64,000 nucleotides of DNA, from IMG/VR virus record IMGVR_UViG_3300003663_000013, one strand, 5' to 3'. This document shows, one piece after another, positions 9,333-64,000 of the stretch. Both the position numbers and the translations under genes were made by a program. The notes beneath the pieces were generated by a model, which saw nothing but the letters and a program-made list of their open reading frames with translations, was not told where the DNA came from and made no database searches. The stretch is from a virus. The stretch's first letter is position 1. Each line of letters opens with the position of its first letter.

Positions 9333-9963
9333 ATATAATAACAGATTTATAGCTTTAGATTGTGAAACTGGGGGATTACCTAAAAGTGGTAAAATGGCAA
9401 CAGTTGATATTTCTTTGACGGAAGTAGCTCTTGTTACAATCGAAAATGAAAAATTAGAGATAATATCACAAGACAGTTGGTTAATAGCTCCCTATGATGA
9501 TAATTTAATATATGATAAAGGGGCAGAGAGGGTTTCTGGTATAAGTAAAGAAATGTGTAAAAAAGAAGGATTGCCAATTGAAGAAGTATATCAAAATATA
9601 TTAGGAGTATTAAAAGACAACAAATTAGGAAAGAACAAACCTATCTTAATAATGCAAAATAAGTCTTTTGATACTCCTTTTATTGAAAACTTATTTCAAA
9701 TATTTGGAGATGATTTATGGAAACACATAGAAAGGGTGGAAGATACTTTGCATTGGGCTAGATACCGATGGATAGAAAAACCAAAATTTAACTTAGGTTC
9801 TATAGCAGAATATTGTGAATTAGATTTAGTCCAAGCACACAGGGCATTACAAGATACACTTATAACTGCAAAAATATGGATTAACTTCATGAAAAGCCTT
9901 AGAGGAGAAAATCAATTAACACAAAAAGAAGAAGTAAAATTTAGAGAAAAATTTAAATTTTAA
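9325..9963 (+). CDS. DnaQ-like DEDDh 3'-5' exonuclease
   Basis: ExoI motif ALDCETGGL and ExoIII motif HRALQDTLITAKIW. Confidence 0.75.
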   Translation: MAKYNNRFIALDCETGGLPKSGKMATVDISLTEVALVTIENEKLEIISQDSWLIAPYDDNLIYDKGAERVSGISKEMCKKEGLPIEEVYQNILGVLKDNKLGKNKPILIMQNKSFDTPFIENLFQIFGDDLWKHIERVEDTLHWARYRWIEKPKFNLGSIAEYCELDLVQAHRALQDTLITAKIWINFMKSLRGENQLTQKEEVKFREKFKF

Positions 9964-12900
9964 TGATCGAAAAACTTGACAAAGGTGGTTCACCTCACAC
10001 TATAGAACAATTAAACTGGGTATACGAACAATTTGAGAATGTCATAGATATGTTAGACGATAAAAGCCTAAAAGAAATATCCAGTGGTTCTCAATTTGAT
10101 GTAGATAGCTTAGTTCAAATAATAGAAGAGGAGACACTTAATATATTTACAGGCATACCAGAACCAATAAATGCAAGTAAGTTCTACAATCTAACCAACG
10201 TAACAGCCAATATACATGAAACACTTAAAGTATTAAATTACAATTACTTTAAGTTAACGATGATGCCAGGGTTCTATATCTCACCACTTAGTATTGAGTG
10301 GGGGAATATAATACAGATATATGATAGGACTTGTGTGCTGGCTTCCAGGGGTTTAGGTAAGAGTTTTGAATATTCCCTCGCTTTGCCTATCTGGAAAATG
10401 TATGGTTATAGAAGACCTTCTGAATTCAATCCAGTATCTTTAGATATAGCACGTAGAAGAGAGGGGCTGCTTGTAACAAATAAATATAAATTAGGACAGA
10501 AATTATTAGGTAAGATTGCTACAGAAATTAAAGAGAATGATGCACTTCACGAGAGATTAAAGCCAGAAAGAAAAGACGAAGGAACATTAGGTAGAGAGAG
10601 AATAGAAACAAAAAATGGTTGTGAATTAAACTTACGTTCTGCTGATTCAACAGCAAGGGGATTACACCCAGATTGGATAATAATAGATGATTATGGAGAT
10701 AATAACTGGATTTATAGTCAAGAACAAAGAGATAAAGCAATAGAAACTTTTTATGGTGATATAATGAAAACAATTGAGAGAGGTGGAACTATCAATATAG
10801 TCGGTTGTGTCTCAATGGACTCAACTATTATAACAAGAGATGGATTAAGAAAAATAGGCAATTTGTGTCCTGTAGAAAATTATAAAGAAAAAGGTTTATA
10901 TGAATATGAGATAGAAGTATTAGGTAAGAATGGGTGGAATAAGACGAGTCATTATTGGTGTAATGGATTAACTAAAACTAAAAAAATAACATTAAAGGGT
11001 GGTTATGAATTAGAGTGTAGTTTAATTCATCCTTTATGGAAAATGAATGAAAATGGGTGTCCTGACTGGTGCGAATCTAAAAATTTGAAAGTTGGGGATT
11101 GGATTGCTGTAAAAGATGGATATGATTTTGATGGAGAAAAAATAGATTTAACTGAATTTTATAGTAACTATAATGTAACATATAAGCATAAAAACATAAA
11201 AATACATAATTCTGTAGATAGAGATTTAGCTTATTTATTAGGATTATATGTTGCTGATGGAAGTTTTGAAGATACAGGTAGAATTACTATAGCTAAGTCA
11301 ATAGAAGGCATTAGAAAGTTTTTGTTAGAATATGGTTTTGTGAAAGGACAAGATATCAAATTAAGATATAATAGTAAATATTTGATTGATTTAATGCAAT
11401 ATTTGGGATTTACTAAAGCAACTGCAATAAGTAAACACATACCAGAAAAAATATTTAAAGCAGATAAAGAAACATTGAAATGGTTTTTACAAGGGATGTT
11501 TGATGGTGATGGCGGTTGTTATGTAGACAAAGATAGTTCTATTCAAATAAATTATAGTAGTATAAGTAAACAATTAATATATGATTTACATAACATATTA
11601 ATGGCATTTGGCATATTTTCATCTATTAAAGAAAGACCTCCTGGAATTTCTGAAAGAGTAAGAGGGAAACATAATCTTTATAGAATAAATATTGCAGGAT
11701 ATGATTCTAGATTATTTTTGGAAAAAATAGGATTTAGGTTTAGTGGTAAATCAGATAAGGTTACAGAAGATTTATTGTCTTCTATAAGGAGTAAAAATTC
11801 ATCTTATAGAAGAATCCCACATCAAAAGGATTTAATTAAAAAAGTAAGAAAAGAAAAACCAAGAAGAAAAAGTGGTGAAGTAAGCACACTACCACCATTT
11901 CATTCTCAAGAAGTAGTAAGTCCTAATATCTCTAGAGAGTCATTAAAAATAGTATCAGATTGGTTTGTAGAAAATGGGGCTAAAGGTGAATTTACAGATC
12001 AGTTAGTTAAAAATGGTAATGAAAATTTAGTATATTTACCTATAACAAAAATAGAAGATTCAGAAAATTACACAGTTGATTTTCATATTCCAAATAAACA
12101 TAATTTTATTACAAATGGTATTGTAAGTCATAATACGCCATTCCAAGAATCTGATTTGTACGCATATATACGTGAAAACGATAAGACATTTAAGTACTTT
12201 GAATACCCTGCTGTAATGCCAGATGGAACCATTGTTGCTCCACATAGGTGGAATATGGAAGAATTAGAGAAAGAATACGAAACCAATGGTCCATTAATTT
12301 TTTCACGTGAGATTTTAGTTGTTCCTATAAGCGATGGAAGTACAATTTTCCCTTGGGATATATTAGAGAAGTCTTTTATAGGGATGCAAGATTATAGATT
12401 AGTTACTAATAGAGATAGTTTTCCTATCAAGTTCAAATTCGTCAGTGTAGGTTGCGATTTCGCAATTTCAGGAAATATAGAAAACGCAGATGCTACTGTA
12501 TTTAGCGTTTGGGGCGTGGATGATTATGAAAATTATTGGCTATTACATATTTGGAGAAAGCAAGGAGCAAGTCACAATGAACAAATAGGCAAATTAAAAG
12601 AAATTGAGAGAAATTTTAGACCTGACGAAATAGTTGCAGAATCTAATGGTTTTCAGAAAGTTATGTTGAGTATAGGTAGAGAACATGGTATTAAAAATAT
12701 AACAGATTTTAATACTACTGGTTGGAATAAGAAAGATTTATATGAAGGTTTGCCTAGTTTAGCTATATTATTTCATCAAGGTAGAATGCGTATGCCACGT
12801 GGAGATGTTCAGAGTAAAGAAATGACAGACTGGTTATGTAGTGAATTTAATAGTATCACAATTAAGCCTGATAGTGGTAAGTTGGAGAGTGCTGGACAGC

Positions 12901-12986
12901 ACGATGACGGTCCAATGAGTGCGTGGTTAGGAATAAAATGTATAAGTGCAAGTAAAGATAAAGATGTTAATTTTGTAATGATGTAA
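9963..12986 (+). CDS. terL: terminase large subunit, interrupted by an intein
   Basis: Walker A-like ASRGLGKS, Walker B DWIIIDDYGD and a C-terminal nuclease-type region. The exteins join as INIVG|TPFQESD. Confidence 0.8.
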   Translation: MIEKLDKGGSPHTIEQLNWVYEQFENVIDMLDDKSLKEISSGSQFDVDSLVQIIEEETLNIFTGIPEPINASKFYNLTNVTANIHETLKVLNYNYFKLTMMPGFYISPLSIEWGNIIQIYDRTCVLASRGLGKSFEYSLALPIWKMYGYRRPSEFNPVSLDIARRREGLLVTNKYKLGQKLLGKIATEIKENDALHERLKPERKDEGTLGRERIETKNGCELNLRSADSTARGLHPDWIIIDDYGDNNWIYSQEQRDKAIETFYGDIMKTIERGGTINIVGCVSMDSTIITRDGLRKIGNLCPVENYKEKGLYEYEIEVLGKNGWNKTSHYWCNGLTKTKKITLKGGYELECSLIHPLWKMNENGCPDWCESKNLKVGDWIAVKDGYDFDGEKIDLTEFYSNYNVTYKHKNIKIHNSVDRDLAYLLGLYVADGSFEDTGRITIAKSIEGIRKFLLEYGFVKGQDIKLRYNSKYLIDLMQYLGFTKATAISKHIPEKIFKADKETLKWFLQGMFDGDGGCYVDKDSSIQINYSSISKQLIYDLHNILMAFGIFSSIKERPPGISERVRGKHNLYRINIAGYDSRLFLEKIGFRFSGKSDKVTEDLLSSIRSKNSSYRRIPHQKDLIKKVRKEKPRRKSGEVSTLPPFHSQEVVSPNISRESLKIVSDWFVENGAKGEFTDQLVKNGNENLVYLPITKIEDSENYTVDFHIPNKHNFITNGIVSHNTPFQESDLYAYIRENDKTFKYFEYPAVMPDGTIVAPHRWNMEELEKEYETNGPLIFSREILVVPISDGSTIFPWDILEKSFIGMQDYRLVTNRDSFPIKFKFVSVGCDFAISGNIENADATVFSVWGVDDYENYWLLHIWRKQGASHNEQIGKLKEIERNFRPDEIVAESNGFQKVMLSIGREHGIKNITDFNTTGWNKKDLYEGLPSLAILFHQGRMRMPRGDVQSKEMTDWLCSEFNSITIKPDSGKLESAGQHDDGPMSAWLGIKCISASKDKDVNFVMM
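10806..12134 (+). mobile_element. intein with LAGLIDADG homing-endonuclease domain (443 aa) in TerL
   Basis: Starts with Cys (CVSMDS) and ends VSHN, followed by Thr +1. Contains LAGLIDADG blocks LAYLLGLYVADGSF and LKWFLQGMFDGDGG. Confidence 0.85.
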
Positions 12987-17701: not shown

Positions 17702-18246
17702 AGAAGAAAGCTACTGATTCGTTAAGGAAATATTATGCTGAACATCCGGAAGCTAAGGGATATCGTAGACAACTTATTTATGAAAGAGAACGGTTTTTTA
17801 TAAATAGTGGACGATTAAAATTTCCTAATTCTAAAGGCGAAATGTTTAGATCTTCTCTAGAAGCTCTTTTTTCTGAGTATTTGATAAATAGAGGTGTTAA
17901 ATATCAGTATGAAAAAAGATATAAATTGATCGACGGTAGAGTGAAAGTGGTGGATTTTACTTTATATAATCATATTTTAGTAGAGGTTAGTGGTTATGCT
18001 TTTGATAATTGGAGGAAAAGCTTCTCGTCCAAGATGAGGGTTGTGAGACAAACATTAAATAATCCCATTTTAATATTAACTTATCCTGAAAATTTGGAAT
18101 TTATACACGAAGACTTTGTAATAGGTTTTGATGTATATTTTGAGAATATATATGATGAAGAGAGAATATTTAGAATAATAAATTATATAAACGAAGTTAA
18201 ATTTTTAAATGACAAATATTATGAATGGCAAATGGCAAATAGCTAA
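17698..18246 (+). CDS. homing-endonuclease-like protein, C-terminal part (possible PD-(D/E)XK-like nuclease fold)
   Basis: The -1 frame is open from 17665. Read that way it gives KGRANPNYNPILKKKATDSLRKYYAEHPE, a NUMOD3-like continuation of the upstream ORF. Confidence 0.45.
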   Translation: MKKKATDSLRKYYAEHPEAKGYRRQLIYERERFFINSGRLKFPNSKGEMFRSSLEALFSEYLINRGVKYQYEKRYKLIDGRVKVVDFTLYNHILVEVSGYAFDNWRKSFSSKMRVVRQTLNNPILILTYPENLEFIHEDFVIGFDVYFENIYDEERIFRIINYINEVKFLNDKYYEWQMANS

Positions 18247-18775
18247 AGAGTTTGGCTGCGATTATGGACATAGAGTATGGACACAGCAATTAAATGAAGA
18301 GTATTCTTGTGATAGTAAATGCGTATGTAGGCATTTACACGGTCACCGAGCAACTATTATTGTTTATTTGGAGAGTGATAAACTTGATGAACAGGGGATG
18401 GTTACAGATTTTAAACACTTAAATTGGTTTAAAGAATTTATAGATAGAGTTATAGATCATAAATTTATTATTGATATAAATGACCCTTTACTTAAGTCTG
18501 GGATTTTTTTGAACAATGTTCATAGAGTAAAAGAAGATATTGATGGTGAAGCTTATTATGAAGTAGTTGCTCCTCATGAATATGAGGATATTGACAATAG
18601 TGTCTATGAGTTGTATGAAGGAATGGTTTTTGTAGATTTTGTTCCTACATCTGAAAATCTTTCTAAATGGTTTTTTGAGATCATTCAGAGAAAAATGAAT
18701 AAAATTGGAGTTAAAGTACAGAGAGTACAATTTTACGAGACTCCTAAATCACAAAGTAATTTCATTAAAAATTAA
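18209..18775 (+). CDS. queD: 6-carboxy-5,6,7,8-tetrahydropterin synthase (QueD)
   Basis: KEFGCDYGHRV and CRHLHGH motifs of the PTPS/QueD family. The start may be the ATG at 18221. Confidence 0.8.
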   Translation: MTNIMNGKWQIAKEFGCDYGHRVWTQQLNEEYSCDSKCVCRHLHGHRATIIVYLESDKLDEQGMVTDFKHLNWFKEFIDRVIDHKFIIDINDPLLKSGIFLNNVHRVKEDIDGEAYYEVVAPHEYEDIDNSVYELYEGMVFVDFVPTSENLSKWFFEIIQRKMNKIGVKVQRVQFYETPKSQSNFIKN

Positions 18776-18782
18776 ATAAGAT

Positions 18783-19541
18783 ATGGTAAAAACAATTATT
18801 GCAGGGAATCCAGATTTTAAAAAAGAGATTCCTGAAGGAGAATTATATTTAGATGTTGCAGAATTCTTTTGTGACACAATTCAAGGTGAAAATTTTGTAG
18901 GTTGGCCATCCGCATTCTTACGAGTACAGCACTGTACCCAGTCGTGTATTTGGTGCGATAGTAAAGAAGTTTGGAGATTTGGTAATCCTTATACTTTTAA
19001 TGAACTATTTGAACTCATAGAAGAGGCAGATTTGATTCGTAAATTTAAAGAAGGACAACACTTAGTACTAACAGGTGGATCTCCGGTGAGACAGCAAGAT
19101 GGATTAATAGCATTTATTAATGCTTTCATTGATAAATATGGATTTAAACCTTATATTGAGATTGAAAATGAATCAACTTTAATGCCAAAAGAAGATTTAA
19201 TTGATCTTGTAGATCTATGGAATAACTCACCTAAATTAGAGAGTTCATATAATCCTAAGAATTTTAGATATAATCCGAAAGTTTTAAGTAAATTAGCTTC
19301 TCTGGATAATTCTTGGTTTAAGTTTGTCGTGTATGATGAAGCGGGTTGGAAAGAGATTCAAGAAGATTTCTTAGATACAGGTTTAATTCGAAAAGATCAA
19401 ACAGTATTGATGCCATTAGGTGCTACAAGAGATGAACTTAATCAAAATCGTGAAAAAGTGCTTGAAATAGCAACAAGAGAAAATGTGAGATACTCTACAC
19501 GTGAACACGTGGTTGTTTGGGATCGTATGACTGGCGTATAA
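18783..19541 (+). CDS. queE: 7-carboxy-7-deazaguanine synthase (QueE, radical SAM)
   Basis: TIQGEN...FLRVQHCTQSCIWCDS carries the CxxxCxxC cluster, in a QueE-like N-terminal context. Confidence 0.8.
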   Translation: MVKTIIAGNPDFKKEIPEGELYLDVAEFFCDTIQGENFVGWPSAFLRVQHCTQSCIWCDSKEVWRFGNPYTFNELFELIEEADLIRKFKEGQHLVLTGGSPVRQQDGLIAFINAFIDKYGFKPYIEIENESTLMPKEDLIDLVDLWNNSPKLESSYNPKNFRYNPKVLSKLASLDNSWFKFVVYDEAGWKEIQEDFLDTGLIRKDQTVLMPLGATRDELNQNREKVLEIATRENVRYSTREHVVVWDRMTGV

Positions 19542-19560: not shown

Positions 19561-20208
19561 ATGTGTGAAATTATATCAGGACAGAACAAGATTCATTCTA
19601 ATGATGAATTAGATGAGAAAAGAAAAGATGTCGAAGAAAAGTATGGAGAATTTTTAACATCTCTAGGATATGATTGGAAGAATGATTCCAATATGAAAGA
19701 TACTCCTAGAAGAGTTGCTAAGATGTATTTAGATGAAGTAACTAAAGGAACCTACACTCCTCGACCTAAGATAACTACTTTTAAGAATCAGACGCATTAC
19801 TCCGGAATGGTTTTTGAAGGAGACATTATAGTGAAATCTTTATGTAGCCATCACATGCAACCTTTTGTAGGTAAAGCACACATAGCTTATATTCCTGGAG
19901 AAAGTGGTAATGTTATTGGATTATCAAAATTAAATAGATTAGTTGATTGGTTTTCAAGAAGACCTCAATTACAGGAGCAGCTTACACAACAAATACATGA
20001 TGAGTTATGTAAAATAATGCCAGACAACCAAGGCGTAGCAGTGATGGTTGAAGCACAACATATGTGTGTTTATTTAAGAGGTATTGAACATAATAGTGTC
20101 ATGAAAACTGCTCAAATGTCAAAAGTTTTTTTTGATAATGAAAAAAGATCCAGAGATGAATTTTATCGTATGATTGCTGATTTAAAAACCAATAAGAATA
20201 TAATATGA
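19561..20208 (+). CDS. folE: GTP cyclohydrolase I (FolE)
   Basis: TPRRVAKMY, CSHHMQPF and QLQEQLT motifs. Confidence 0.85.
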   Translation: MCEIISGQNKIHSNDELDEKRKDVEEKYGEFLTSLGYDWKNDSNMKDTPRRVAKMYLDEVTKGTYTPRPKITTFKNQTHYSGMVFEGDIIVKSLCSHHMQPFVGKAHIAYIPGESGNVIGLSKLNRLVDWFSRRPQLQEQLTQQIHDELCKIMPDNQGVAVMVEAQHMCVYLRGIEHNSVMKTAQMSKVFFDNEKRSRDEFYRMIADLKTNKNII

Positions 20209-20651
20209 TAAGGGTAAAATTTATTAAAACACATGAAGATGCTATTTTGCCATCTAAAAACTACCACGGTAATTCTACTGGTGACGCATGCTATGATTTA
20301 TTTGCTGTGGAAACCGTTAAAATAGCCGCTGGTGAAAATAAAGTAGTGCCTGTAGGTATGAAAGTGGCTTTTATAGAGCCAGGCTATTGGTTAAGAATAG
20401 AGGCTAGAAGTGGAAATGGTTTCAATAAAAATTTAGAACCACACCCTGGCATAATTGATAATGGTTATAGGGGAGATTTAGATATTAAAATATTTAATTT
20501 AGGGAAAGAAGACCAGGTTATAGAAAAAGGTAAAGGAGTTGCGCAATTTTCTATAATCAAAATGATTTCAGCTGATATAAGTTGGTCTCAGGAGATATCA
20601 GATTCTGAAAGAGGCGAAAAAGGTTTGGGGAGTTCAGATAAAAATGAATGA
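20205..20651 (+). CDS. dUTPase-fold nucleotide pyrophosphatase embedded in the deazaguanine cluster
   Basis: All five trimeric dUTPase motifs are present: GDACYDL, ARSG, GIIDNGYRGD, GVAQ and RGEKGLGSS. Motif 5 is diverged. Confidence 0.7.
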   Translation: MIRVKFIKTHEDAILPSKNYHGNSTGDACYDLFAVETVKIAAGENKVVPVGMKVAFIEPGYWLRIEARSGNGFNKNLEPHPGIIDNGYRGDLDIKIFNLGKEDQVIEKGKGVAQFSIIKMISADISWSQEISDSERGEKGLGSSDKNE

Positions 20652-20904
20652 AAAAAGTGACATAAGCAAATCGTTTTTCTTTAAAACTAAAGGTGGGTCT
20701 CAAGGTTATATAGATATTGAAGTCCACCCTCATAAAAATAATCTTCCTATTCATAAAGAAAGGGCAAATAAAAAGCAAGAAGTAAAAGGTAAAAAGGCAA
20801 GAATTGTAGAGCTTTTAGAAAAAAGGTGTAGTTCAAGTGAAATTAAAAAAATCACAGGTTTTAGTTCAGCATATATTAATAAAGTTAAAAATAATAAAGT
20901 ATGA
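20644..20904 (+). CDS. small HTH DNA-binding protein
   Basis: The C-terminal segment RCSSSEIKKITGFSSAYINKVKNN looks like an HTH. Confidence 0.4.
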   Translation: MNEKSDISKSFFFKTKGGSQGYIDIEVHPHKNNLPIHKERANKKQEVKGKKARIVELLEKRCSSSEIKKITGFSSAYINKVKNNKV

Positions 20905-21680
20905 AAAGAAGTCACGAAGTACCAATTTGTTTATTAGAGGAAAGTCGTAAATTTAATGATTTTGATTATGCATTAGTTCATCTATTCTCTGATAATTTTG
21001 AATATTATAATTTCTTTGTAGAATCCTTGAAAATGGGGAGAACGGTTATTTTGGATAATAGTGTCTTTGAATTAGGAGAAGCCTATGAAGAGCAGGAATA
21101 CGCAAGGTGGATAGAGAAATTAGAACCCACTTATTATATAATACCAGATCGTTTTGAGGATAAAAAATTTACAGTGAGTTCTGTAAATAAATGGACAGAG
21201 AGAACTTTCTGCGCTAAACCAATAGGCGTAGTACAGGGAGAAACAATAGATGAATTGTTGGAATGTTATGATGATATAGCAGATAAAGTGGATATTATTG
21301 CAATTAGTTTTGCACAGCCAGCTTTTGAGAAATTATTTCCTTCAATACATAAAGATTGGGCAAGGTCATTAGGTAGAGTATTTTTTGTCAATTCTTTAAT
21401 AAACAAAGGTTTATTGAGAGATTGGAAAAAACATCACTTATTAGGATGCTCTCTTCCACAAGAATTAATATGGTATAAAAACCCTATTTATAATTTTTTA
21501 ACCTCAATTGACACTAGTTCTCCAGTTTTACATACTATATTTGATAAGAAATATGAAAGTTGGGGTTTAAAAGAAAAAATTAAAACAAAGCTTGCTGATT
21601 ATATAAATATTGACAGTTCTTTGATTAATAGTAATTTATTATATTATAATCTTGAGATTTTTAAAAATTTAATGCCATGA
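20901..21680 (+). CDS. dpdA: DpdA-like (TGT-fold) 7-deazaguanine DNA transglycosylase candidate
   Basis: Motif order resembles TGT: ILDNSVFE (DSGGFQ-like), IIPDRF, GVVQGE (GIVQGG-like), HHLLGCS (LMGVG-like) and SIDTSSP. It sits between folE and queC. Confidence 0.6.
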   Translation: MKRSHEVPICLLEESRKFNDFDYALVHLFSDNFEYYNFFVESLKMGRTVILDNSVFELGEAYEEQEYARWIEKLEPTYYIIPDRFEDKKFTVSSVNKWTERTFCAKPIGVVQGETIDELLECYDDIADKVDIIAISFAQPAFEKLFPSIHKDWARSLGRVFFVNSLINKGLLRDWKKHHLLGCSLPQELIWYKNPIYNFLTSIDTSSPVLHTIFDKKYESWGLKEKIKTKLADYINIDSSLINSNLLYYNLEIFKNLMP

Positions 21681-22228
21681 AGATAGCTATTTCAGGGGCA
21701 CAAAATTCTGGTAAAACAACTTTAATCAAGTTAATTAAGGAAAAAGGTAAGACAAAAGGTTACATTTTTTTTGATGAGGTTGTCAGAACTTTAAAGAAGG
21801 AAAAAAATATATCTATAAATAAAGTGGCAGATTTTGATTCTCAAGTCTTGATTTTAGAAAGGCATTTAGAGAATTTAAAAGAAGAAAATTTTATAACAGA
21901 CAGGTGTTTATTAGACGCGTTTGTTTATTCTCATTATTTATACGATAAAGCGTTATACAGTAAGGAGCAAATGGATGTTTTTGAAAAGTTATTCTTGAAA
22001 GGTATTGATAAATATGATTTAATTTTTTTGCAAGATATCGAAGGTATTTCTATTGAAGATGATGGTTTTAGGAGCTTGGATATTAAATTTAGAGAAGACA
22101 TTCATTCCTTATTTTTAAATATATTAAGTATATTTAAAATAAATTATGTAATTTTAGAAGGAACCATAAACCAAAGATATAAAATATTTAATCGGTCTAT
22201 CAATGAGAAAATCAGAAAATATAAGTAA
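21677..22228 (+). CDS. P-loop NTPase / nucleoside(-tide) kinase-like protein
   Basis: N-terminal Walker A ISGAQNSGKTT in a small kinase-like protein. Confidence 0.5.
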   Translation: MKIAISGAQNSGKTTLIKLIKEKGKTKGYIFFDEVVRTLKKEKNISINKVADFDSQVLILERHLENLKEENFITDRCLLDAFVYSHYLYDKALYSKEQMDVFEKLFLKGIDKYDLIFLQDIEGISIEDDGFRSLDIKFREDIHSLFLNILSIFKINYVILEGTINQRYKIFNRSINEKIRKYK

Positions 22229-22730
22229 GTATACAATTGAATGGCAAGTTTTAAGGGTTTCTTTAAAAAATAAGTATAATGATGATTTAGTGTATAAATT
22301 ATCAATAGTAAAAAATTATTTTAATAAAACGAAATCTTATGACAGGTGGGAGAGAGTTTATAATTGGTTGGAAGGTTTAGAAAGAGGGTTTAAGACTCAC
22401 AGTAAATTTCATGAAATATCAATAATTAAGAGTGAGCTAAATTATTATAATGAACACAAGCCAGATAAAAATTATATTTCAAATGAAGATAATTCTTTTA
22501 AAGATTATGATTTGGTTATTTTACAAAAACTATGGAAAGATTTATTTAAGACAAACAAAAATTGGTTAGACAATGGTTATTTTCATAAAGAGTGTAATGA
22601 TTTTATAGATAAGCTATATGAATATTTAAAAAATAAGGTTATATTTGATGATAAGTATTCTTATCAGTGCTTACAAGCATTGAGGAGTAAATCTCTCTTC
22701 ATTCACAATAAACATAAATTCTTTTTTTAA
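22203..22730 (+). CDS. hypothetical protein inside the deazaguanine cluster
   Basis: 175-aa ORF with no recognisable motif. Confidence 0.5.
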   Translation: MRKSENISKYTIEWQVLRVSLKNKYNDDLVYKLSIVKNYFNKTKSYDRWERVYNWLEGLERGFKTHSKFHEISIIKSELNYYNEHKPDKNYISNEDNSFKDYDLVILQKLWKDLFKTNKNWLDNGYFHKECNDFIDKLYEYLKNKVIFDDKYSYQCLQALRSKSLFIHNKHKFFF

Positions 22731-22744
22731 TTAAAATTTATAGT

Positions 22745-24370
22745 ATGAAAAAAGCAGTAGTAGTATTTTCAGGAGGTCAGGACTCTACAACCTGTCTAGG
22801 ATGGGCTTTAAAAAATTTTGATGAAGTTGAAGCGATAACATTTAATTATGGACAAAAGCATTCAATAGAATTAGAGCAAGCTAAATCTATTTGTGAGAAA
22901 CATGGTGTAAATCAGACTTTAATAGATATTTCGTTTTTAAATACATTGGTTGATTCTGCTTTAACAAGCAACGGAGATGTTAATAAGACACATCCGAGAT
23001 TAAAATATCTCCCTGCAAGTTTTGTTCCTAATAGGAATGCATTGTTTTTAACTTTAGCTCATGCTTATGCACAAAAAATTGGAGCAGAGACTTTAGTGAC
23101 GGGCGTGTGTGAAACTGATTATTGTGTGACGGGAGATACGTTGATAGATTGTCCAAGAGATTTATCTATTTATCCTCAAGGTATCCCTATAAAGGAATTG
23201 GTAGGGAAAGAGTTTTTAACATGGTCATGGGATGTACAGAAGCAAAAAACAGTTTTAAAAAGAGCGTTTAATGTAAGAAAAACTTATGATGAAACAGATA
23301 TATATGAAGTTAAATATACTTGGGGAGTGGGTAAGAGTAAGAGGTTTGGCTCAGTAAAAGCTACATCGGATCATAGATTTCTACTTACATCTGGTAAATA
23401 TGTTAAATTGAAAGATTTAAAGAACGGAGATTCATTACAAACCTTTCATTCGACCTATGATAAAAAATATAGATTAATAACATCTGAACCCACCAAAGTG
23501 CAATATGAACATAAGTTAATCGTTTCTTTATTAAACAATATAAATATAGCATCAGATTGGGTTTCTCATCACAAAGATCATAATCCATATAATAATAATG
23601 TTGATAATTTACAGAAAATGGATTTTTCTATACATATGTCTCATCACACTAAACAAAGCTGGGAAAGTGGATTGCTTAAAGTAAACAATACTTTTATCAA
23701 TAACAATCCCATGAATTATAAAAAATATAGAGATAAAGTCTCTCAAAAAAAGAAAGAGTGGTGGGATAATTTATTACAAGAAGATAGACAGAGAATGTCT
23801 AATAAATCAAGTGTTAGTATGAAAAAAAGAATGGAATCAAATGATTATATAAATCCATCTAACCTACCAGGTGTTAAATTTAAGCAGAGATATGCTAGAT
23901 ACAAGTATTATAATAATAGAGATGGAATGGAAATGGTTAAGAAAGAAGCTGAAATAGCTGGATTTAGTGTAAATCATAAAGTAGTTTCTATTGAATATAT
24001 TGGTCGAGATTCAGCATACGATATGGAGGTAGAAGATACACATAATTTCGTAGCTAACGATATTTTTATTCATAACAGCGGATACCCTGATTGTAGAAAT
24101 ATATTTATTGAGTCATTACAAGAATCTTTACATTTAGCTTCAGATGTTTTAATAAAAATTGAAACACCTTTAATGTACTTAGATAAGGCAGATACATTTA
24201 AGATGGCTGATGATATAGGTATTTTAAATGACGTTATTAATTTATCTCACACTTGTTATAATGGAGATCACAAGACTAAGAATGAATGGGGATATGGATG
24301 TGGTGAGTGTCCTGCTTGTCAAGTTAGAAAAAGGGGCTATGAAGAGTATTTAAATAGATATAAAAAATAA
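22745..24370 (+). CDS. queC: 7-cyano-7-deazaguanine synthase (QueC), interrupted by an intein
   Basis: PP-loop VVFSGGQDST. The exteins join as GVCETDY|SGYPDCR, the canonical QueC motif. C-terminal Zn motif CGECPAC. Confidence 0.85.
   Translation: MKKAVVVFSGGQDSTTCLGWALKNFDEVEAITFNYGQKHSIELEQAKSICEKHGVNQTLIDISFLNTLVDSALTSNGDVNKTHPRLKYLPASFVPNRNALFLTLAHAYAQKIGAETLVTGVCETDYCVTGDTLIDCPRDLSIYPQGIPIKELVGKEFLTWSWDVQKQKTVLKRAFNVRKTYDETDIYEVKYTWGVGKSKRFGSVKATSDHRFLLTSGKYVKLKDLKNGDSLQTFHSTYDKKYRLITSEPTKVQYEHKLIVSLLNNINIASDWVSHHKDHNPYNNNVDNLQKMDFSIHMSHHTKQSWESGLLKVNNTFINNNPMNYKKYRDKVSQKKKEWWDNLLQEDRQRMSNKSSVSMKKRMESNDYINPSNLPGVKFKQRYARYKYYNNRDGMEMVKKEAEIAGFSVNHKVVSIEYIGRDSAYDMEVEDTHNFVANDIFIHNSGYPDCRNIFIESLQESLHLASDVLIKIETPLMYLDKADTFKMADDIGILNDVINLSHTCYNGDHKTKNEWGYGCGECPACQVRKRGYEEYLNRYKK
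23123..24076 (+). mobile_element. intein (318 aa) with HNH-type endonuclease insert in QueC
   Basis: Starts with Cys (CVTGDTLID) and ends FIHN, followed by Ser +1. The internal segment SHHKDHNPYNNNVDNLQKMDFSIHMSHH looks HNH-like. No LAGLIDADG blocks were seen. Confidence 0.8.
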
Positions 24371-24374
24371 TAAA

Positions 24375-24671
24375 ATGGAACAAAAATATAAAAAATTACC
24401 AACCATTTTTAAGAAGAATGGTTATTATTATAGAGTCTTAGATAGAACTGAAACTACTGCAATTGTAGAGCAATGTGTTGCAGAACGAGCCGATCCTTTC
24501 TGTTATGAGGTTTTTTATATTAAAAAGCAAGATGAGATGGATGTAAATATTGGTGGCGTTGATGTGCATTATGAAGCTAAAGAAAATCCCCCATCTAACG
24601 AAGATTTTGGGAAAACTGCTTGGAGTATTAGAGATAGAGATAAGGCCTTAAAACTATTTAAGCAATTATGA
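24375..24671 (+). CDS. hypothetical protein
   Basis: 98-aa ORF between queC and dnaE. Confidence 0.5.
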   Translation: MEQKYKKLPTIFKKNGYYYRVLDRTETTAIVEQCVAERADPFCYEVFYIKKQDEMDVNIGGVDVHYEAKENPPSNEDFGKTAWSIRDRDKALKLFKQL

Positions 24672-61266: not shown

Positions 61267-64000
61267 ATGGCAAAAAAGAAAGAAGACAGCCATAATTATC
61301 CACAAAGCTTGTCAGAACTCTCTAAGATGAAATCAGAATTAGAAATGTTAGAGCTATTTCACATAGAAAAGGCTCTAACTTCTAATGATCCTAGAGCATA
61401 TATAGAAGCTAAGACACATATAAAAAACATAGAAGAAAAGAAAAAGACAGATTTACGTTCTTTTTCTTTCTCTCCTGATGGTGATTATTACACAGGACAA
61501 GGTTATAGATACAAACCAATGGGTTTAAGTAATGACCTGTTGAGAAATATGTCTAATACACCACAGATAAAAGCCATTATAAACACCCGAATAGAACAAG
61601 CAAGTAACTTCAACAAGTTTTCTTTAGACATGCAAAAACCAGGATGGACTATTAAAAGAAAATCTGGGTTATTTGATGAAAAAGAAAAAGAACTAAGTGA
61701 CCAAGATAAAAGAACCATAGAAGCAGTTTACCAATTCATGGAAAATGGAGGCAAATTAGGACAATGGGATTTTGATGGTTGGGAAACATTTACAAGGAAA
61801 TTATATGAGGATAGTTGGGGATTAGATCAAGGAGTATTTGAAGTAGCAGTAGATAGAATTGGACGCCCCAGTTCTTTTGATGTATATGACGGTGGAACTT
61901 TCTACCTGGCAGAACATAGATACAAAACGGAAGCAGAAAGAAAACAACTGGAAGCATTTATGATAAATGGATACTTACCTCGTTACGTTCAAGTAATAAA
62001 GAACAAAGTACAAAGAGAGTATTATCCATGGGAATTGTGTTTCGGAGTAAGAAATGCAAATTCAAGTATAAAATTAAATGGATATGGATTGAGTGAAAAC
62101 GAAGTATTGATTCAGATTATAACATGGATGTTGAATGCAAACTCCTATAATGGCAATTTTTTCTGTATTTCTGAAGATAGTAGAATTGTTACAGATTTAG
62201 GTATTAGAGATATTAAGAGTTTAGTGGATTACGATAGTTTTAAAGTATATGATGGAGTTGAGTGGATTAATGCTAAGGCTTATAAAACAAGAGTAGATGA
62301 TTTATATGAGACAAGGCTTTATAATGGATTGAAATTAAAAACATCTAAAGAACATAGATTTTTAATATTTAGAGAAGGTAGTACAGAACCGATATGGATA
62401 GAACAAAAAGACCTTGAAGTAGGTGATCTTTGTATGGTTGAGATAAATTCTCACAATATGTTTAATCCTGATGATTATTTTATAGGAAAAGAGTATTACA
62501 GAGAGTTTACTAATCCTACGAAAGAAGCTATATTAAGAAAGCCAAACACATTCACCCCTACTATAGAGATGGTTGAGGACGAAGAATTTTGGGAGATGAT
62601 TGGTTTTGCTATGGGAGATGGTAATTGGCAAAAACACATTTTACAAATATTCCTTCATTGGGAGAAAGATAAAGAATTATTTAAAAAATTCTCTGATGTG
62701 TGTAAAAGGTATAATATTAGATATCAAAAGAGAGTTATAAATAAGAAAGTTACAAGAGGAGATAGGATTAAAGGCTATCCAGCAATATTTATTTATCATG
62801 CAACTTTTATGGACTGGTTGATAGATATAGGGCTTGGATATAGTAGAGATAAGAAAATTCCTTTGAGTGTATTTAATTTACCAGATAATTTAAAAGGAGC
62901 ATTTTTAAGAGGTTGGTTTTCTGCTGATGGACATTCTGAGAAAAATGTCTCGGGATACAAAACTCCTACTTTATGTTGTGTAAATGACGATCTTAGACAA
63001 GATGCTATACAATTATTATTGAGTTTAGGTATTGCTGCGAAAGAAGCAGGACGTGGTTATAAAAACTATAAAGGCAGAAGTATTATAATTTTTGTTCAAG
63101 ATGTTGTTAGCTTTGTAGATAAAGTTGGATATATACAAGATTATAAGAACGAAGGAGTTTTTAGAAACAAACGAACTCAACACAAATGGGATCTATTGCC
63201 GAATTCTTTGGCTTTAGATATTTTGAATAAATATTATGTAGGGAGAGCTGATATAACTAAAGTTAAAAATCAAGTTAAGGGTGGTGGTAGAATAAGTAGA
63301 GGTAGGTTAATAAGGTTATTAAATGAAGCAAATATCGAGATACCATCTATTTTAAACTATCATTTTATTAAGATAGAGAATGTGGGTAGAGAAAGTATTG
63401 GGGTAGAACAATTATATGATATTGAAGTGTTTAGTGACAAACACATTTTCTTATCTAATTTTGTTGCAGTTCACAATAGCCAGGGAAGTAACCCGAAAGG
63501 TATATTAAACTTCAAGGACAATGTTAACCCTACTAAATTAGAAGAATTTAAACAAGCATGGTCGAATACATTAAGTGGTTACAAAAATTCCCACAAATTA
63601 GCCGCAATATCAGGAGGAAATCTTGAGTGGTTAAACATGCAATTGTCGAATCGTGATATGGAATTCCACAAATGGAGTGAGTTCCTAACTGTATTAGCCT
63701 GTACTGTATTTAGAATAGATCCTGATGAAGTAGGATTCCACTTAGAAGGAAGTAAAGGAATGTTTGGTCAAGATGGTCAAAAAGAAAGATTAAAACATTC
63801 TAAAGAAAAAGGGTTGGAACCATTCATGAAATTTTGGCAAAAGAAATTCACAAAATACTTAGTTGGACCATTAACAGACGGTAAATTCGAATTCCAATTT
63901 ACAGGATTGGAACCAGACGATGAAGAAGCACAATTAAAAAGAGATATAGAGATACTTACTAATGCAGGTATGTCAGTACAAGACTTCTTTATGAAGTATT
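61267..64000 (+). CDS. portal protein, interrupted by an intein (3' end outside window)
   Basis: Frame translated by eye from the ATG at 61267 and still open at the window end, so it is absent from the track. The exteins join as SYNGNFF|SQGSNPKGIL, a portal-like motif. Confidence 0.65.
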   Translation, partial: MAKKKEDSHNYPQSLSELSKMKSELEMLELFHIEKALTSNDPRAYIEAKTHIKNIEEKKKTDLRSFSFSPDGDYYTGQGYRYKPMGLSNDLLRNMSNTPQIKAIINTRIEQASNFNKFSLDMQKPGWTIKRKSGLFDEKEKELSDQDKRTIEAVYQFMENGGKLGQWDFDGWETFTRKLYEDSWGLDQGVFEVAVDRIGRPSSFDVYDGGTFYLAEHRYKTEAERKQLEAFMINGYLPRYVQVIKNKVQREYYPWELCFGVRNANSSIKLNGYGLSENEVLIQIITWMLNANSYNGNFFCISEDSRIVTDLGIRDIKSLVDYDSFKVYDGVEWINAKAYKTRVDDLYETRLYNGLKLKTSKEHRFLIFREGSTEPIWIEQKDLEVGDLCMVEINSHNMFNPDDYFIGKEYYREFTNPTKEAILRKPNTFTPTIEMVEDEEFWEMIGFAMGDGNWQKHILQIFLHWEKDKELFKKFSDVCKRYNIRYQKRVINKKVTRGDRIKGYPAIFIYHATFMDWLIDIGLGYSRDKKIPLSVFNLPDNLKGAFLRGWFSADGHSEKNVSGYKTPTLCCVNDDLRQDAIQLLLSLGIAAKEAGRGYKNYKGRSIIIFVQDVVSFVDKVGYIQDYKNEGVFRNKRTQHKWDLLPNSLALDILNKYYVGRADITKVKNQVKGGGRISRGRLIRLLNEANIEIPSILNYHFIKIENVGRESIGVEQLYDIEVFSDKHIFLSNFVAVHNSQGSNPKGILNFKDNVNPTKLEEFKQAWSNTLSGYKNSHKLAAISGGNLEWLNMQLSNRDMEFHKWSEFLTVLACTVFRIDPDEVGFHLEGSKGMFGQDGQKERLKHSKEKGLEPFMKFWQKKFTKYLVGPLTDGKFEFQFTGLEPDDEEAQLKRDIEILTNAGMSVQDFFMKY
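62164..63477 (+). mobile_element. intein with LAGLIDADG homing-endonuclease domain (438 aa) in portal
   Basis: Starts with Cys (CISEDSRIV) and ends VAVHN, followed by Ser +1. Contains LAGLIDADG blocks FWEMIGFAMGDGNW and LKGAFLRGWFSADGH. Confidence 0.8.

What the first reader, a model, noticed from the sequence alone, without database searches (positions are those of the whole stretch)
23123..24076. Intein with an HNH-type nuclease inserted in QueC at the catalytic GVCETDY|SGYPDCR motif
The QueC reading frame is split exactly inside its most conserved motif by a 318-aa element. The element has intein termini: Cys1, a C-terminal HN, and Ser +1. Its central insert carries an HNH-like signature (HHKDHNPYNNNVDNL...HMSHH) rather than LAGLIDADG blocks. 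QueC is not a classical intein host. Here the DNA-hypermodification pathway depends on protein splicing, and the element marks an active-site-targeted homing site.
Basis: partly seen in the sequence, partly recalled or inferred. Interest (0 to 1): 0.65.

Follow-up and report, generated by a model that had tools for sequence, protein, structure and literature searches.

The report
Mobile HNH intein in phage QueC
A phage gene for QueC, an enzyme that makes a modified DNA base, is interrupted by a selfish protein-splicing element with its own DNA-cutting domain; near-identical phages lacking the element at exactly this spot show it is mobile, but it is an ordinary kind of element in a new host gene.

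Summary
ORF 22745..24370 encodes QueC, interrupted in frame by a 318-aa insert (23123..24076) that has every sequence and fold hallmark of a class 1 intein. Its central domain is an I-HmuI/HNH_3-type HNH nuclease followed by a helical region.

- **Precise excision:** removing the insert gives a 223-aa QueC that aligns end to end with solved QueC structures.
- **Empty site found:** two aquaculture metagenomes carry an almost identical phage (99% in the upstream flank). Its queC lacks exactly these 954 bases and encodes the predicted spliced product with one change (Y126F).
- **Lateral transfer:** intein alleles in other phage lineages are 61% identical, while their QueC exteins are only 42-45% identical.
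- **Pathway context:** the gene lies in a FolE-QueD-QueE-DpdA3 cluster for 7-deazaguanine DNA modification.
- **Rarity:** none of 254 GenBank phage QueC genes and none of 185,579 species genomes carries an intein at this site. I found no paper describing one.
- **Family:** the intein belongs to a very large HNH-intein family. Its members also occupy QueF and FolE at catalytic cysteines.

Splicing and nuclease activity are inferred, not shown. Verdict: a real, probably active mobile intein, and a new member of a known kind.

The parts
22745..23122 (+). QueC N-extein (126 aa). Carries the PP-loop SGGQDS and ends ...GVCETDY (residue -1 is Tyr).
   Evidence: Pfam PF06508, first stretch residues 3-127. 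Aligns to 3BL5 residues 4-127.
23123..24076 (+). Class 1 intein, 318 aa. Cys1, block B T81-x-x-H84, block F around D300/H307, and block G H317-N318.
   Evidence: PF14890, 66.1 bits. PDB phmmer hits to DnaB/DnaX/DnaE mini-inteins at both ends. AlphaFold model matched NpuDnaB intein in Foldseek, TM 0.85. Absent as a precise unit in L009.
23123..23443 (+). Hint N-terminal lobe (intein residues 1-107, blocks A and B).
   Evidence: pLDDT 84-96. Aligned to Npu/Ssp DnaB inteins.
23444..23683 (+). HNH beta-beta-alpha-metal nuclease core (intein residues 108-187). Motif residues 149-175 lie at 23567..23647: H149 H150 N154 N158 N162 H171 H175.
   Evidence: phrog_7545 HNH endonuclease, E 5.6e-7, residues 128-179. 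HNH_3 in 5/5 alleles. Invariant columns. Domain model pLDDT 89.7 with strand-strand-helix at the motif. BFVD best hits are HNH nucleases, E 8.6e-5. I-HmuI is the best PDB hit but is not significant.
23684..23971 (+). Helical region after the HNH core (intein residues 188-283). Presumed DNA-binding extension.
   Evidence: All-helical in the domain model, pLDDT 75-96. Related inteins carry NUMOD3 or HTH modules at this position. No family match in this allele, so the function is inferred.
23972..24076 (+). Hint C-terminal lobe (intein residues 284-318, blocks F and G), ending HN.
   Evidence: Aligned to NpuDnaB 110-142. pLDDT 92-97.
24077..24370 (+). QueC C-extein (97 aa plus stop). Starts SGYPDCR (+1 Ser, invariant in 120/120 homologues) and carries the C-terminal Cys cluster.
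20901..21680 (+). DpdA3-type DNA guanine transglycosylase, which inserts the 7-deazaguanine base into DNA.
   Evidence: 42% identity to the annotated DpdA of Flavobacterium phage immuto and to its Campylobacter phage CP220 homologue. phmmer E 1.2e-57. Family defined in PMC10516641.
18209..20208 (+). QueD (18209..18775), QueE (18783..19541) and FolE (19561..20208). These are the upstream steps of the preQ0 pathway that QueC completes.
   Evidence: Pfam PTPS 6.1e-28, Radical_SAM/Fer4_12, GTP_cyclohydroI 8.9e-53.

Best explanation
The insert is a canonical class 1 intein carrying an in-frame HNH (I-HmuI/HNH_3-like) homing endonuclease. It sits in the queC gene of an uncultivated phage that modifies its DNA with a 7-deazaguanine base through a DpdA3 transglycosylase.

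**Inferred mechanism**
1. The 541-aa precursor is translated.
2. Cys1 makes the N-S acyl shift, assisted by block B T81/H84.
3. The +1 Ser attacks.
4. Asn318 cyclises, assisted by His317.
5. The exteins are ligated into a 223-aa QueC with the motif ...GVCETDY-SGYPDCR... restored. QueC then makes preQ0 (or a related base) for insertion into DNA.

**Inferred spread**
During co-infection the freed intein, or the precursor, binds the uninterrupted queC allele around GAT TTT|AGT GGA TAT CCT. The HNH domain nicks or cuts it. Repair copied from the intein-bearing allele installs the element.

**Shown here**
- The anatomy.
- The Hint fold and the HNH fold and motifs.
- The exact empty allele in nature.
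- Purifying selection on every sub-domain.
- Intein-extein incongruence between lineages.

**Inferred only:** actual splicing, nuclease activity and the cleavage site.
For: **Anatomy and fold**
- establish the Hint domain at both ends.
- The splice residues C1, H84, H317 and N318 are invariant in five alleles that are 34-61% identical to the window's intein (MAFFT; 36-38% by global alignment for the two distant ones). The +1 residue is Ser in every QueC allele and Cys in the FolE and QueF alleles.

**HNH domain**
- Searches support the assignment.

**Precise excision restores QueC**
- Colinear alignment to 3BL5, E 1.6e-70.
- All 254 GenBank phage hits cover only the exteins, as two pieces contiguous in the subject.

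**Empty site**
- The X8 contig (depth 41) and an X17 contig join 23120 to 24080 with TTAGT between them.
- The 3,314-nt contig L009 is 99.1% identical over 20286..23120.
- It encodes P0155, which equals the predicted spliced product apart from Y126F.
- Twelve other runs carry the intein.

**Homing signature**
- 3 of the 13 extein differences lie within 9 nt of the insertion point (P about 8e-4).
- Synonymous changes also cluster 9-21 nt upstream in other intein-bearing alleles.

**Lateral transfer**
- Intein identity is 61% against extein identity of 42-45%.
- pN is 0.26 in the intein against 0.39 in the exteins, with saturated pS.
- The closest intein-less QueC proteins (74-77%; phage phiSM 64%) are nearer to this extein than the intein-bearing ones are.

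**Selection**
- pN is 0.18-0.30 against pS of about 0.75 in each of Hint-N, HNH, helical region and Hint-C.

**Context**
-.
Against: - No experiment or proteomic data shows splicing.
- The window's own allele scores below Pfam's HNH_3 cut-off.
- The Foldseek PDB match to I-HmuI is not significant (E 1.6).
- Recent polymorphisms inside the intein are 3 nonsynonymous to 2 synonymous, against 1 to 12 in the exteins. The element is therefore under weaker constraint than its host gene.
- Each sample appears fixed for one allele at contig level, so ongoing homing was not caught in the act.
- The presence/absence pattern alone cannot distinguish gain from precise loss.
Confidence: 0.85

Rival explanations
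1. The intein still splices, but its HNH domain is no longer an active homing nuclease. The element would then be a vertically inherited passenger late in the homing cycle, and the empty allele would reflect old history or precise loss.
For: - HNH_3 score is below the curated cut-off in this allele.
- Recent polymorphisms in the intein are mostly nonsynonymous, 3 of 5.
- Each metagenome appears fixed for one state.
Against: - H149, H150, N154, N158, N162, H171 and H175 are invariant across five alleles; H149, H150, N158, N162 and H171 stay invariant and H175 nearly so across 21 family members.
- pN is far below pS in the HNH core and in the helical region.
- Intein identity exceeds extein identity between lineages.
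- The three recent amino-acid changes (T107P, S226P, M271I) avoid the motif.
- The empty and filled alleles sit in backgrounds 99% identical, which implies a recent gain or loss.
Confidence: 0.12
2. The insertion inactivates queC: the precursor does not splice and the gene is a pseudogene. The phage would rely on host preQ0 or on another copy outside the window.
For: - Splicing is untested.
- Bacterial hosts often make preQ0 themselves.
- Only 64 kb of the genome is visible.
Against: - The ORF is intact at 541 codons.
- All splice-critical residues are present and conserved.
- Extein differences to the intein-less allele are 12 synonymous to 1 conservative, so the interrupted gene remains under strong purifying selection.
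- The same intein-bearing allele occurs at 99% identity or more in 12 runs from oil, subsurface, sludge, landfill and marine samples.
Confidence: 0.03

Closest known systems
In-frame HNH-endonuclease inteins of phages (first described by Dalgaard et al. 1997; surveyed in actinobacteriophages in bioRxiv 10.1101/2025.01.02.630785)
   Same: - Class 1 Hint splicing domain with an HNH nuclease inserted between blocks B and F.
- Found in phage genes at conserved motifs.
- Intein more similar than its exteins between lineages, which that preprint reads as recent invasion.
   Different: - The host gene is QueC. It is not among the 19 host genes listed in that survey, and the words QueC and queuosine do not occur in the preprint.
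- Here a natural empty allele in a 99%-identical background is available.
I-HmuI (PDB 1U3E), the HNH homing endonuclease of Bacillus phage SPO1
   Same: - Best PDB match of the central domain by both profile and fold.
- Same HH-x-D-x-N...N-x-x-x-N-L motif.
- Same layout of a monomeric beta-beta-alpha-metal core followed by helical DNA-binding extensions (PMC3384342).
   Different: - I-HmuI is encoded in a group I intron, not in an intein.
- The matches are weak (E 0.31 and 1.6).
- The last metal ligand here is His (H171), where I-HmuI has Asn.
Ssp/Npu DnaB mini-inteins (PDB 1MI8, 4O1R, 6FRG)
   Same: Closest solved splicing domains: TM 0.85 to 4O1R, with blocks A, B, F and G aligned.
   Different: The solved chains lack an endonuclease domain. 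The host is a helicase, not QueC.
Related HNH inteins in QueF and FolE found here (P0005, P0006, P0027, P0031, P0041, P0060, P0077, P0079, P0085, P0088)
   Same: - Same intein family.
- Same pathway (7-deazaguanine synthesis).
- Insertion at an active-site motif: before the CPxTGQPD cysteine of QueF and before the CEHH cysteine of FolE.
   Different: - Only 36-38% identical to the QueC intein.
- Its nearest non-QueC relatives sit instead in SNF2-type helicase, DnaB and SbcC-like hosts, so these are separate colonisations, not one lineage hopping along the pathway.
- The +1 residue is Cys, not Ser.

Membership tests
Class 1 intein (Hint-domain protein-splicing element) | In-frame insertion whose removal restores a colinear host protein | tested here: met
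   The spliced sequence aligns without a gap to QueC 3BL5, E 1.6e-70. A natural intein-less allele differs by one residue.
Class 1 intein (Hint-domain protein-splicing element) | Hint fold with blocks A, B, F and G | tested here: met
   PF14890 scores 66.1 bits against a cut-off of 35.8. phmmer hits to DnaB/DnaX/DnaE inteins. Foldseek TM 0.85 to 4O1R.
Class 1 intein (Hint-domain protein-splicing element) | Cys/Ser at position 1, TxxH in block B, penultimate His with terminal Asn, and Ser/Thr/Cys at +1 | tested here: met
   C1, T81/H84, H317-N318 and S+1 are read directly from the sequence. C1, H84, H317 and N318 are invariant in five alleles; the +1 residue is Ser in QueC alleles and Cys in the FolE and QueF alleles.
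Class 1 intein (Hint-domain protein-splicing element) | Protein splicing actually occurs | not testable with these tools
   Needs expression followed by western blot or mass spectrometry.
HNH (beta-beta-alpha-metal) homing endonuclease, HNH_3 / I-HmuI type | HNH motif residues | tested here: met
   H149, H150, N154, N158, N162, H171 and H175 are invariant in 5 alleles. H149, H150, N158, N162 and H171 stay invariant, and H175 nearly so, in 21 family members.
HNH (beta-beta-alpha-metal) homing endonuclease, HNH_3 / I-HmuI type | Significant profile match to an HNH family | tested here: inconclusive
   Pfam HNH_3 scores 15.8 bits against a cut-off of 24.8 in this allele. Against that, phrog_7545 'HNH endonuclease' gives E 5.6e-7, 5/5 alleles hit HNH_3 with best E 1.1e-7, and family members exceed the cut-off.
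HNH (beta-beta-alpha-metal) homing endonuclease, HNH_3 / I-HmuI type | Beta-beta-alpha-metal fold | tested here: met
   The domain model has pLDDT 89.7 with strand-strand-helix at the motif. Best BFVD matches are phage HNH nucleases, E 8.6e-5 to 1e-3, rmsd 2-2.5 A. The best PDB hit, I-HmuI, is not significant on its own.
HNH (beta-beta-alpha-metal) homing endonuclease, HNH_3 / I-HmuI type | Site-specific cleavage of the intein-less allele | not testable with these tools
   Needs an in vitro nuclease assay on the L009 empty-site DNA.
Mobile (homing) genetic element | Presence/absence polymorphism at one exact site in otherwise near-identical genomes | tested here: met
   The X8 and X17 contigs skip the element, and L009 is 99.1% identical upstream. 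Twelve runs carry the intein.
Mobile (homing) genetic element | Element history incongruent with host-gene history | tested here: met
   Intein identity 61% against extein 42-45%. pN 0.26 against 0.39.
QueC (7-cyano-7-deazaguanine synthase) | Full-length PP-loop ATPase with SGGxDS and the C-terminal Cys cluster, homologous to characterised QueC | tested here: met
   PF06508 scores 236.6 bits. 3BL5 and 2PG3 align end to end.
Phage DpdA3-type 7-deazaguanine DNA modification cluster | FolE, QueD, QueE and QueC together with a DpdA3 transglycosylase | tested here: met
   The family is described in PMC10516641. The chemical nature and extent of the modification are not testable here. No QueF is present in the window.

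The most novel reading that the evidence does not exclude
The homing endonuclease of this intein may operate on, or have adapted to, DNA in which guanine is largely or wholly replaced by a 7-deazaguanine base. DpdA3 phages are reported to be fully substituted.

Under this reading, the three substitutions clustered at the insertion point of the empty allele would mark a nuclease-resistant target variant. The recurrent occupation of QueC, QueF and FolE active-site codons by HNH inteins would reflect a particular fit between this nuclease family and hypermodified phage genomes.

A weaker variant is that splicing acts as a conditional switch timing preQ0 synthesis.
Probability: 0.15. Interest if true: 0.7.

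Novelty: new member of a known kind. Interest (0 to 1): 0.42.

Why it matters
- **New host gene.** It adds QueC, and by extension QueF and FolE, to the proteins known to host inteins. It ties protein splicing to phage DNA hypermodification, an anti-restriction pathway.
- **Ready-made test material.** Filled and empty natural alleles are both in hand in a 99%-identical background. That gives the substrate pair needed to test an HNH intein nuclease, a type with few characterised examples. It also allows a test of whether such a nuclease copes with 7-deazaguanine DNA.
- **Annotation.** Pipelines that expect a QueC of about 220 aa will mis-size or split this gene.
- **Limits.** It does not change how inteins are understood to work.

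Tried and rejected
- **Megablast of the gene against 50,697 phage records:** no match, so this is not a deposited phage.
- **PDB sequence search with the putative DpdA:** nothing significant. The identity was settled instead by tblastn to annotated phage DpdA3.
- **Peptide-pattern scan of IMG/VR with the intein:** only two distant loci. A degenerate junction pattern worked better.
- **Foldseek of the whole intein:** it reported only Hint matches, so the central domain was modelled alone. Its PDB match to I-HmuI was not significant, but the viral library gave clear HNH matches.
- **One lineage spreading through QueC, QueF and FolE:** considered and rejected. The QueC intein's nearest non-QueC relatives are in helicase, DnaB and SbcC-like hosts. 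The apparent closeness came from the word pre-filter.
- **Enrichment of pathway enzymes among hosts:** not claimed, because the search profile was built from those very proteins.
- **An X3 contig starting at 24076:** it looked like a second empty allele. However, another X3 contig runs through the N junction without a branch, and depth there is 3-5, so it is treated as a coverage break.
- **The odd C-terminus of P0001:** this is an inverted assembly join through the repeat ATTTTTATT, not a variant.
- **dS:** saturated against the other lineage, so no dN/dS ratio is quoted.
- **Two read-laying runs** failed for technical reasons.
Full report
**1.

ORF 22745..24370 (+) encodes 541 aa. Bases 23123..24076 are 954 nt, or 318 codons. 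They read CVTGDTLIDC...ANDIFIHN, preceded by ...LVTGVCETDY and followed by SGYPDCRNIF....

- Pfam finds QueC (PF06508, 236.6 bits) in two stretches on either side of the insert.
- Pfam finds Intein_splicing (PF14890, 66.1 bits, cut-off 35.8) across the insert.
- The insert has the same G+C content as the window (29.7% against 29.3%), so it is not a recent arrival from a compositionally different genome.

**2. It is an intein by sequence and by fold**

- phmmer against the PDB aligns residues 1-98 and 286-318 to the N- and C-terminal halves of the Npu/Ssp DnaB, Spl DnaX and DnaE mini-inteins (best E 3.1e-7).
- An AlphaFold2 model built on five alleles has pLDDT 84-97 across both Hint lobes.
- Its best PDB fold matches are DnaB mini-inteins: 4O1R at TM 0.85 and rmsd 3.6 A, E down to 5.5e-8.
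- The residues needed for class 1 splicing are all present: Cys1, T81-x-x-H84 (block B), D300 and H307 (block F), His317-Asn318 (block G) and Ser+1.
- C1, H84, H317 and N318 are invariant in an alignment of five alleles that are 34-61% identical to the window's intein.

**3. The central domain is an HNH nuclease of the I-HmuI/HNH_3 type**

- The window's allele matches Pfam HNH_3 only weakly (15.8 bits, cut-off 24.8).
- It matches the PHROG 'HNH endonuclease' family phrog_7545 at E 5.6e-7 over residues 128-179.
- All five aligned alleles hit HNH_3, best E 1.1e-7.
- A profile of the domain has I-HmuI (1U3E) as its best PDB hit, aligned at the motif. The E-value of 0.31 is not significant alone.
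- H149, H150, N154, N158, N162, H171 and H175 are invariant in the five alleles. H149, H150, N158, N162 and H171 stay invariant, and H175 nearly so, in 21 more distant family members.
- A model of residues 108-282 alone reaches pLDDT 89.7. It shows two strands and a helix at the motif, followed by an all-helical region.
- Against the PDB its best hit is again I-HmuI but without significance (E 1.6).
- Against predicted viral structures the best hits are phage HNH nucleases and homing endonucleases (E 8.6e-5 to 1e-3, rmsd 2-2.5 A over about 75 residues).
- The helical region has no family match in this allele. Related inteins carry NUMOD3 or helix-turn-helix modules in the same place, so DNA binding is inferred.

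**4. Removing the insert restores QueC exactly**

- The joined exteins (223 aa) align end to end and without a gap at the junction to B. subtilis QueC 3BL5 (E 1.6e-70) and to 2PG3.
- In 120 close homologues the +1 Ser is invariant. Residue -1 is Tyr in 67 and Phe in 52. D125, G128, Y129, D131, C132 and R133 are at least 98% conserved.
- By a 14-residue sliding mean the PP-loop block is a little more conserved. 'Most conserved motif' is therefore slightly overstated.
- The catalytic role of the motif was not tested here.

**5. A natural empty site exists**

Sequencing runs from crude-oil, oil-field, subsurface, landfill, sludge, marine and aquaculture metagenomes hold near-identical sequence.

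- Contigs in 12 runs lie within the intein or span its junctions.
- In two aquaculture runs from different studies (X8 at depth 41, and X17), a contig joins 23120 to 24080 with the five letters TTAGT between them.
- The 3,314-nt X8 contig was recovered as L009.
- L009 is 99.1% identical to the window over 20286..23120 and 96.0% over 24077..24553.
- Its queC encodes 223 aa, identical to the predicted spliced product except Y126F at position -1.
- The empty site reads ...GAA ACT GAT TTT | AGT GGA TAT CCT GAT TGT...
- Of the 13 nucleotide differences in the exteins, 12 are synonymous, so the interrupted gene is under strong purifying selection.
- Three of the 13 (23121, 24079, 24085) fall within 9 nt of the insertion point. 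About 0.17 would be expected by chance (Poisson P about 8e-4).
- Other intein-bearing alleles show four synonymous changes 9-21 nt upstream of the site.
- Variation clustered at the target is what co-conversion during homing, or selection for nuclease-resistant targets, would produce. The data do not say which.

**6. The intein has moved between lineages**

- The protein database holds intein-bearing QueC alleles with the element at the same site, TD[YF]|SGYPDCR: P0002, P0003, P0007, the more divergent P0050, and fragments.
- P0002 lies in a different phage type, with a family A polymerase and a different gene order.
- Between the window and P0002/P0003 the inteins are 61% identical but the exteins only 42-45%.
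- Nonsynonymous difference is 0.26 in the intein against 0.39 in the exteins, with synonymous sites saturated everywhere.
- Intein-less QueC proteins at 74-77% identity, and phage phiSM at 64%, are closer to this extein than the intein-bearing ones are.
- An intein more conserved than its essential host protein is the pattern taken in the literature to indicate recent invasion (bioRxiv 10.1101/2025.01.02.630785).
- Each sub-domain (Hint-N, HNH, helical, Hint-C) shows pN of 0.18-0.30 against pS of about 0.75. All parts, including the nuclease, have therefore been under purifying selection.

**7. Context: a DpdA3-type 7-deazaguanine DNA modification cluster**

Gene order upstream, through queC, and downstream:

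| Coordinates | Assignment |
|---|---|
| 18209 | QueD |
| 18783 | QueE |
| 19561 | FolE |
| 20205 | dUTPase |
| 20901..21680 | DpdA3 |
| 21677 | kinase-like AAA_28 protein |
| 22203 | unknown ORF |
| 22745 | queC with intein |
| 24668 | Pol III alpha |
| 31212 | RecA |
| 32196 | SbcC-like protein |

- ORF 20901..21680 has no Pfam match. It is 42% identical to the annotated DpdA of Flavobacterium phage immuto and to its homologue in Campylobacter phage CP220 (phmmer E 1.2e-57).
- These belong to the DpdA3 subfamily, reported to replace guanine completely (PMC10516641).
- No QueF and no second QueC are in the window.
- The modification is most likely preQ0 or a close derivative. This is inference.
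- That the pathway depends on splicing is plausible but unproven. A host could supply preQ0, and only 64 kb of the genome is seen.

**8. How unusual is it?**

- None of 254 QueC-bearing GenBank phage records covers the intein.
- A degenerate DNA pattern spanning the N junction finds 0 matches in one genome each of 185,579 bacterial and archaeal species. It finds 1 contig in IMG/VR and 1 of the same 28,245-nt length in the JGI metagenome collection, most likely the same P0002-type phage.
- Full-text searches pairing intein with QueC, queuosine, 7-deazaguanine, DpdA, QueF or preQ0 found no description. The two main papers on phage 7-deazaguanines do not contain the word intein.
- The intein type itself is not rare in sequence space. 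A profile of the five alleles finds 11,626 proteins at E of 0.001 or better, and 573 at 1e-30 or better, among 1.84 billion representatives.
- Hosts include RNR, RecA, DnaB, SNF2-type helicases, SbcC-like proteins and deoxyhypusine synthase.
- In-frame HNH inteins have been known since 1997 and are regarded as non-canonical but established.

**9. Related inteins in the same pathway**

- Eight 50%-identity clusters of QueF carry a family member immediately before the cysteine of CPxTGQPD.
- Two clusters of FolE carry one before the cysteine of CEHH.
- From established enzymology, not tested here, these are the thioimide-forming Cys of QueF and a zinc ligand of GTP cyclohydrolase I.
- These inteins are only 36-38% identical to the QueC intein.
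- The QueC intein's nearest non-QueC relatives are in other hosts.
- These are therefore independent colonisations by a promiscuous family.

**10. Verdict**

This is a real and almost certainly functional mobile intein of a known architecture in a host gene not previously reported. Unusually good natural material, in the form of filled and empty alleles, is available for testing it. Splicing and nuclease activity remain inferred.

Noticed in passing
window 9963..12986 (intein about 10806..12134): The large terminase subunit (1007 aa) carries a second intein. It is 443 aa and of LAGLIDADG type (NIVG|CVSMD...IVSHN|TPFQ, +1 Thr). Pfam gives Intein_splicing 1.8e-12 and LAGLIDADG_3 4.1e-16.
   Followed up: partly
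window 61267..63999 (intein about 62164..63477); the ORF runs off the window end: The portal protein carries a third intein. It is 438 aa and of LAGLIDADG type (NGNFF|CISED...VAVHN|SQGS). Pfam gives Phage_portal, LAGLIDADG_3 and Intein_splicing at 35.0 bits, just under the 35.8 cut-off. That makes three inteins in 64 kb.
   Followed up: partly
L005 216..1625; L006 777..2351; proteins P0005, P0085, P0006, P0027, P0031, P0041, P0060, P0077, P0079, P0088: HNH inteins of the same broad family interrupt FolE before CEHH and QueF before CPxTGQPD in metagenomic contigs. In L006 an intein-less QueC lies directly upstream of the interrupted QueF.
   Followed up: partly
window 22741/22742 and about 24356..24395: In several runs (X1, X2, X5, X7 upstream; X1, X3, X5, X6, X8 downstream) contigs match queC at about 99% but diverge completely just outside the gene. 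queC with its intein therefore sits between mosaic breakpoints.
   Followed up: no
window 20901..21680: A DpdA3-type transglycosylase without any Pfam match. Its nearest deposited relatives are in Campylobacter CP220-like and Flavobacterium immuto phages. Together with 29% G+C and sources in oil, sludge and aquaculture, this hints at a low-GC host, possibly Campylobacterota, and at fully substituted DNA.
   Followed up: partly
protein P0001 (JGI contig of 1,957 nt), corresponding to window about 24062..24155: A database copy of this gene ends in KTSEAKCKDSCNDSINIFLQSGYPLL. That is the reverse-complement translation of the C-extein, joined through the inverted repeat ATTTTTATT/AATAAAAAT, so it is an assembly artefact.
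   Followed up: yes
L001 7611..8327 (P0002-type phage): The other intein-bearing phage lineage has a CN_hydrolase (nitrilase-family) gene directly after FolE in its deazaguanine cluster. It uses a family A polymerase fused to UDG. The role of the nitrilase-like gene was not examined.
   Followed up: no
window 23093..23140: The N-extein codons for VTG (GTGACGGGC) and the intein's own VTG (GTGACGGGA) form a 9-of-10 direct repeat 30 nt apart, straddling the N junction. This is probably coincidental.
   Followed up: no
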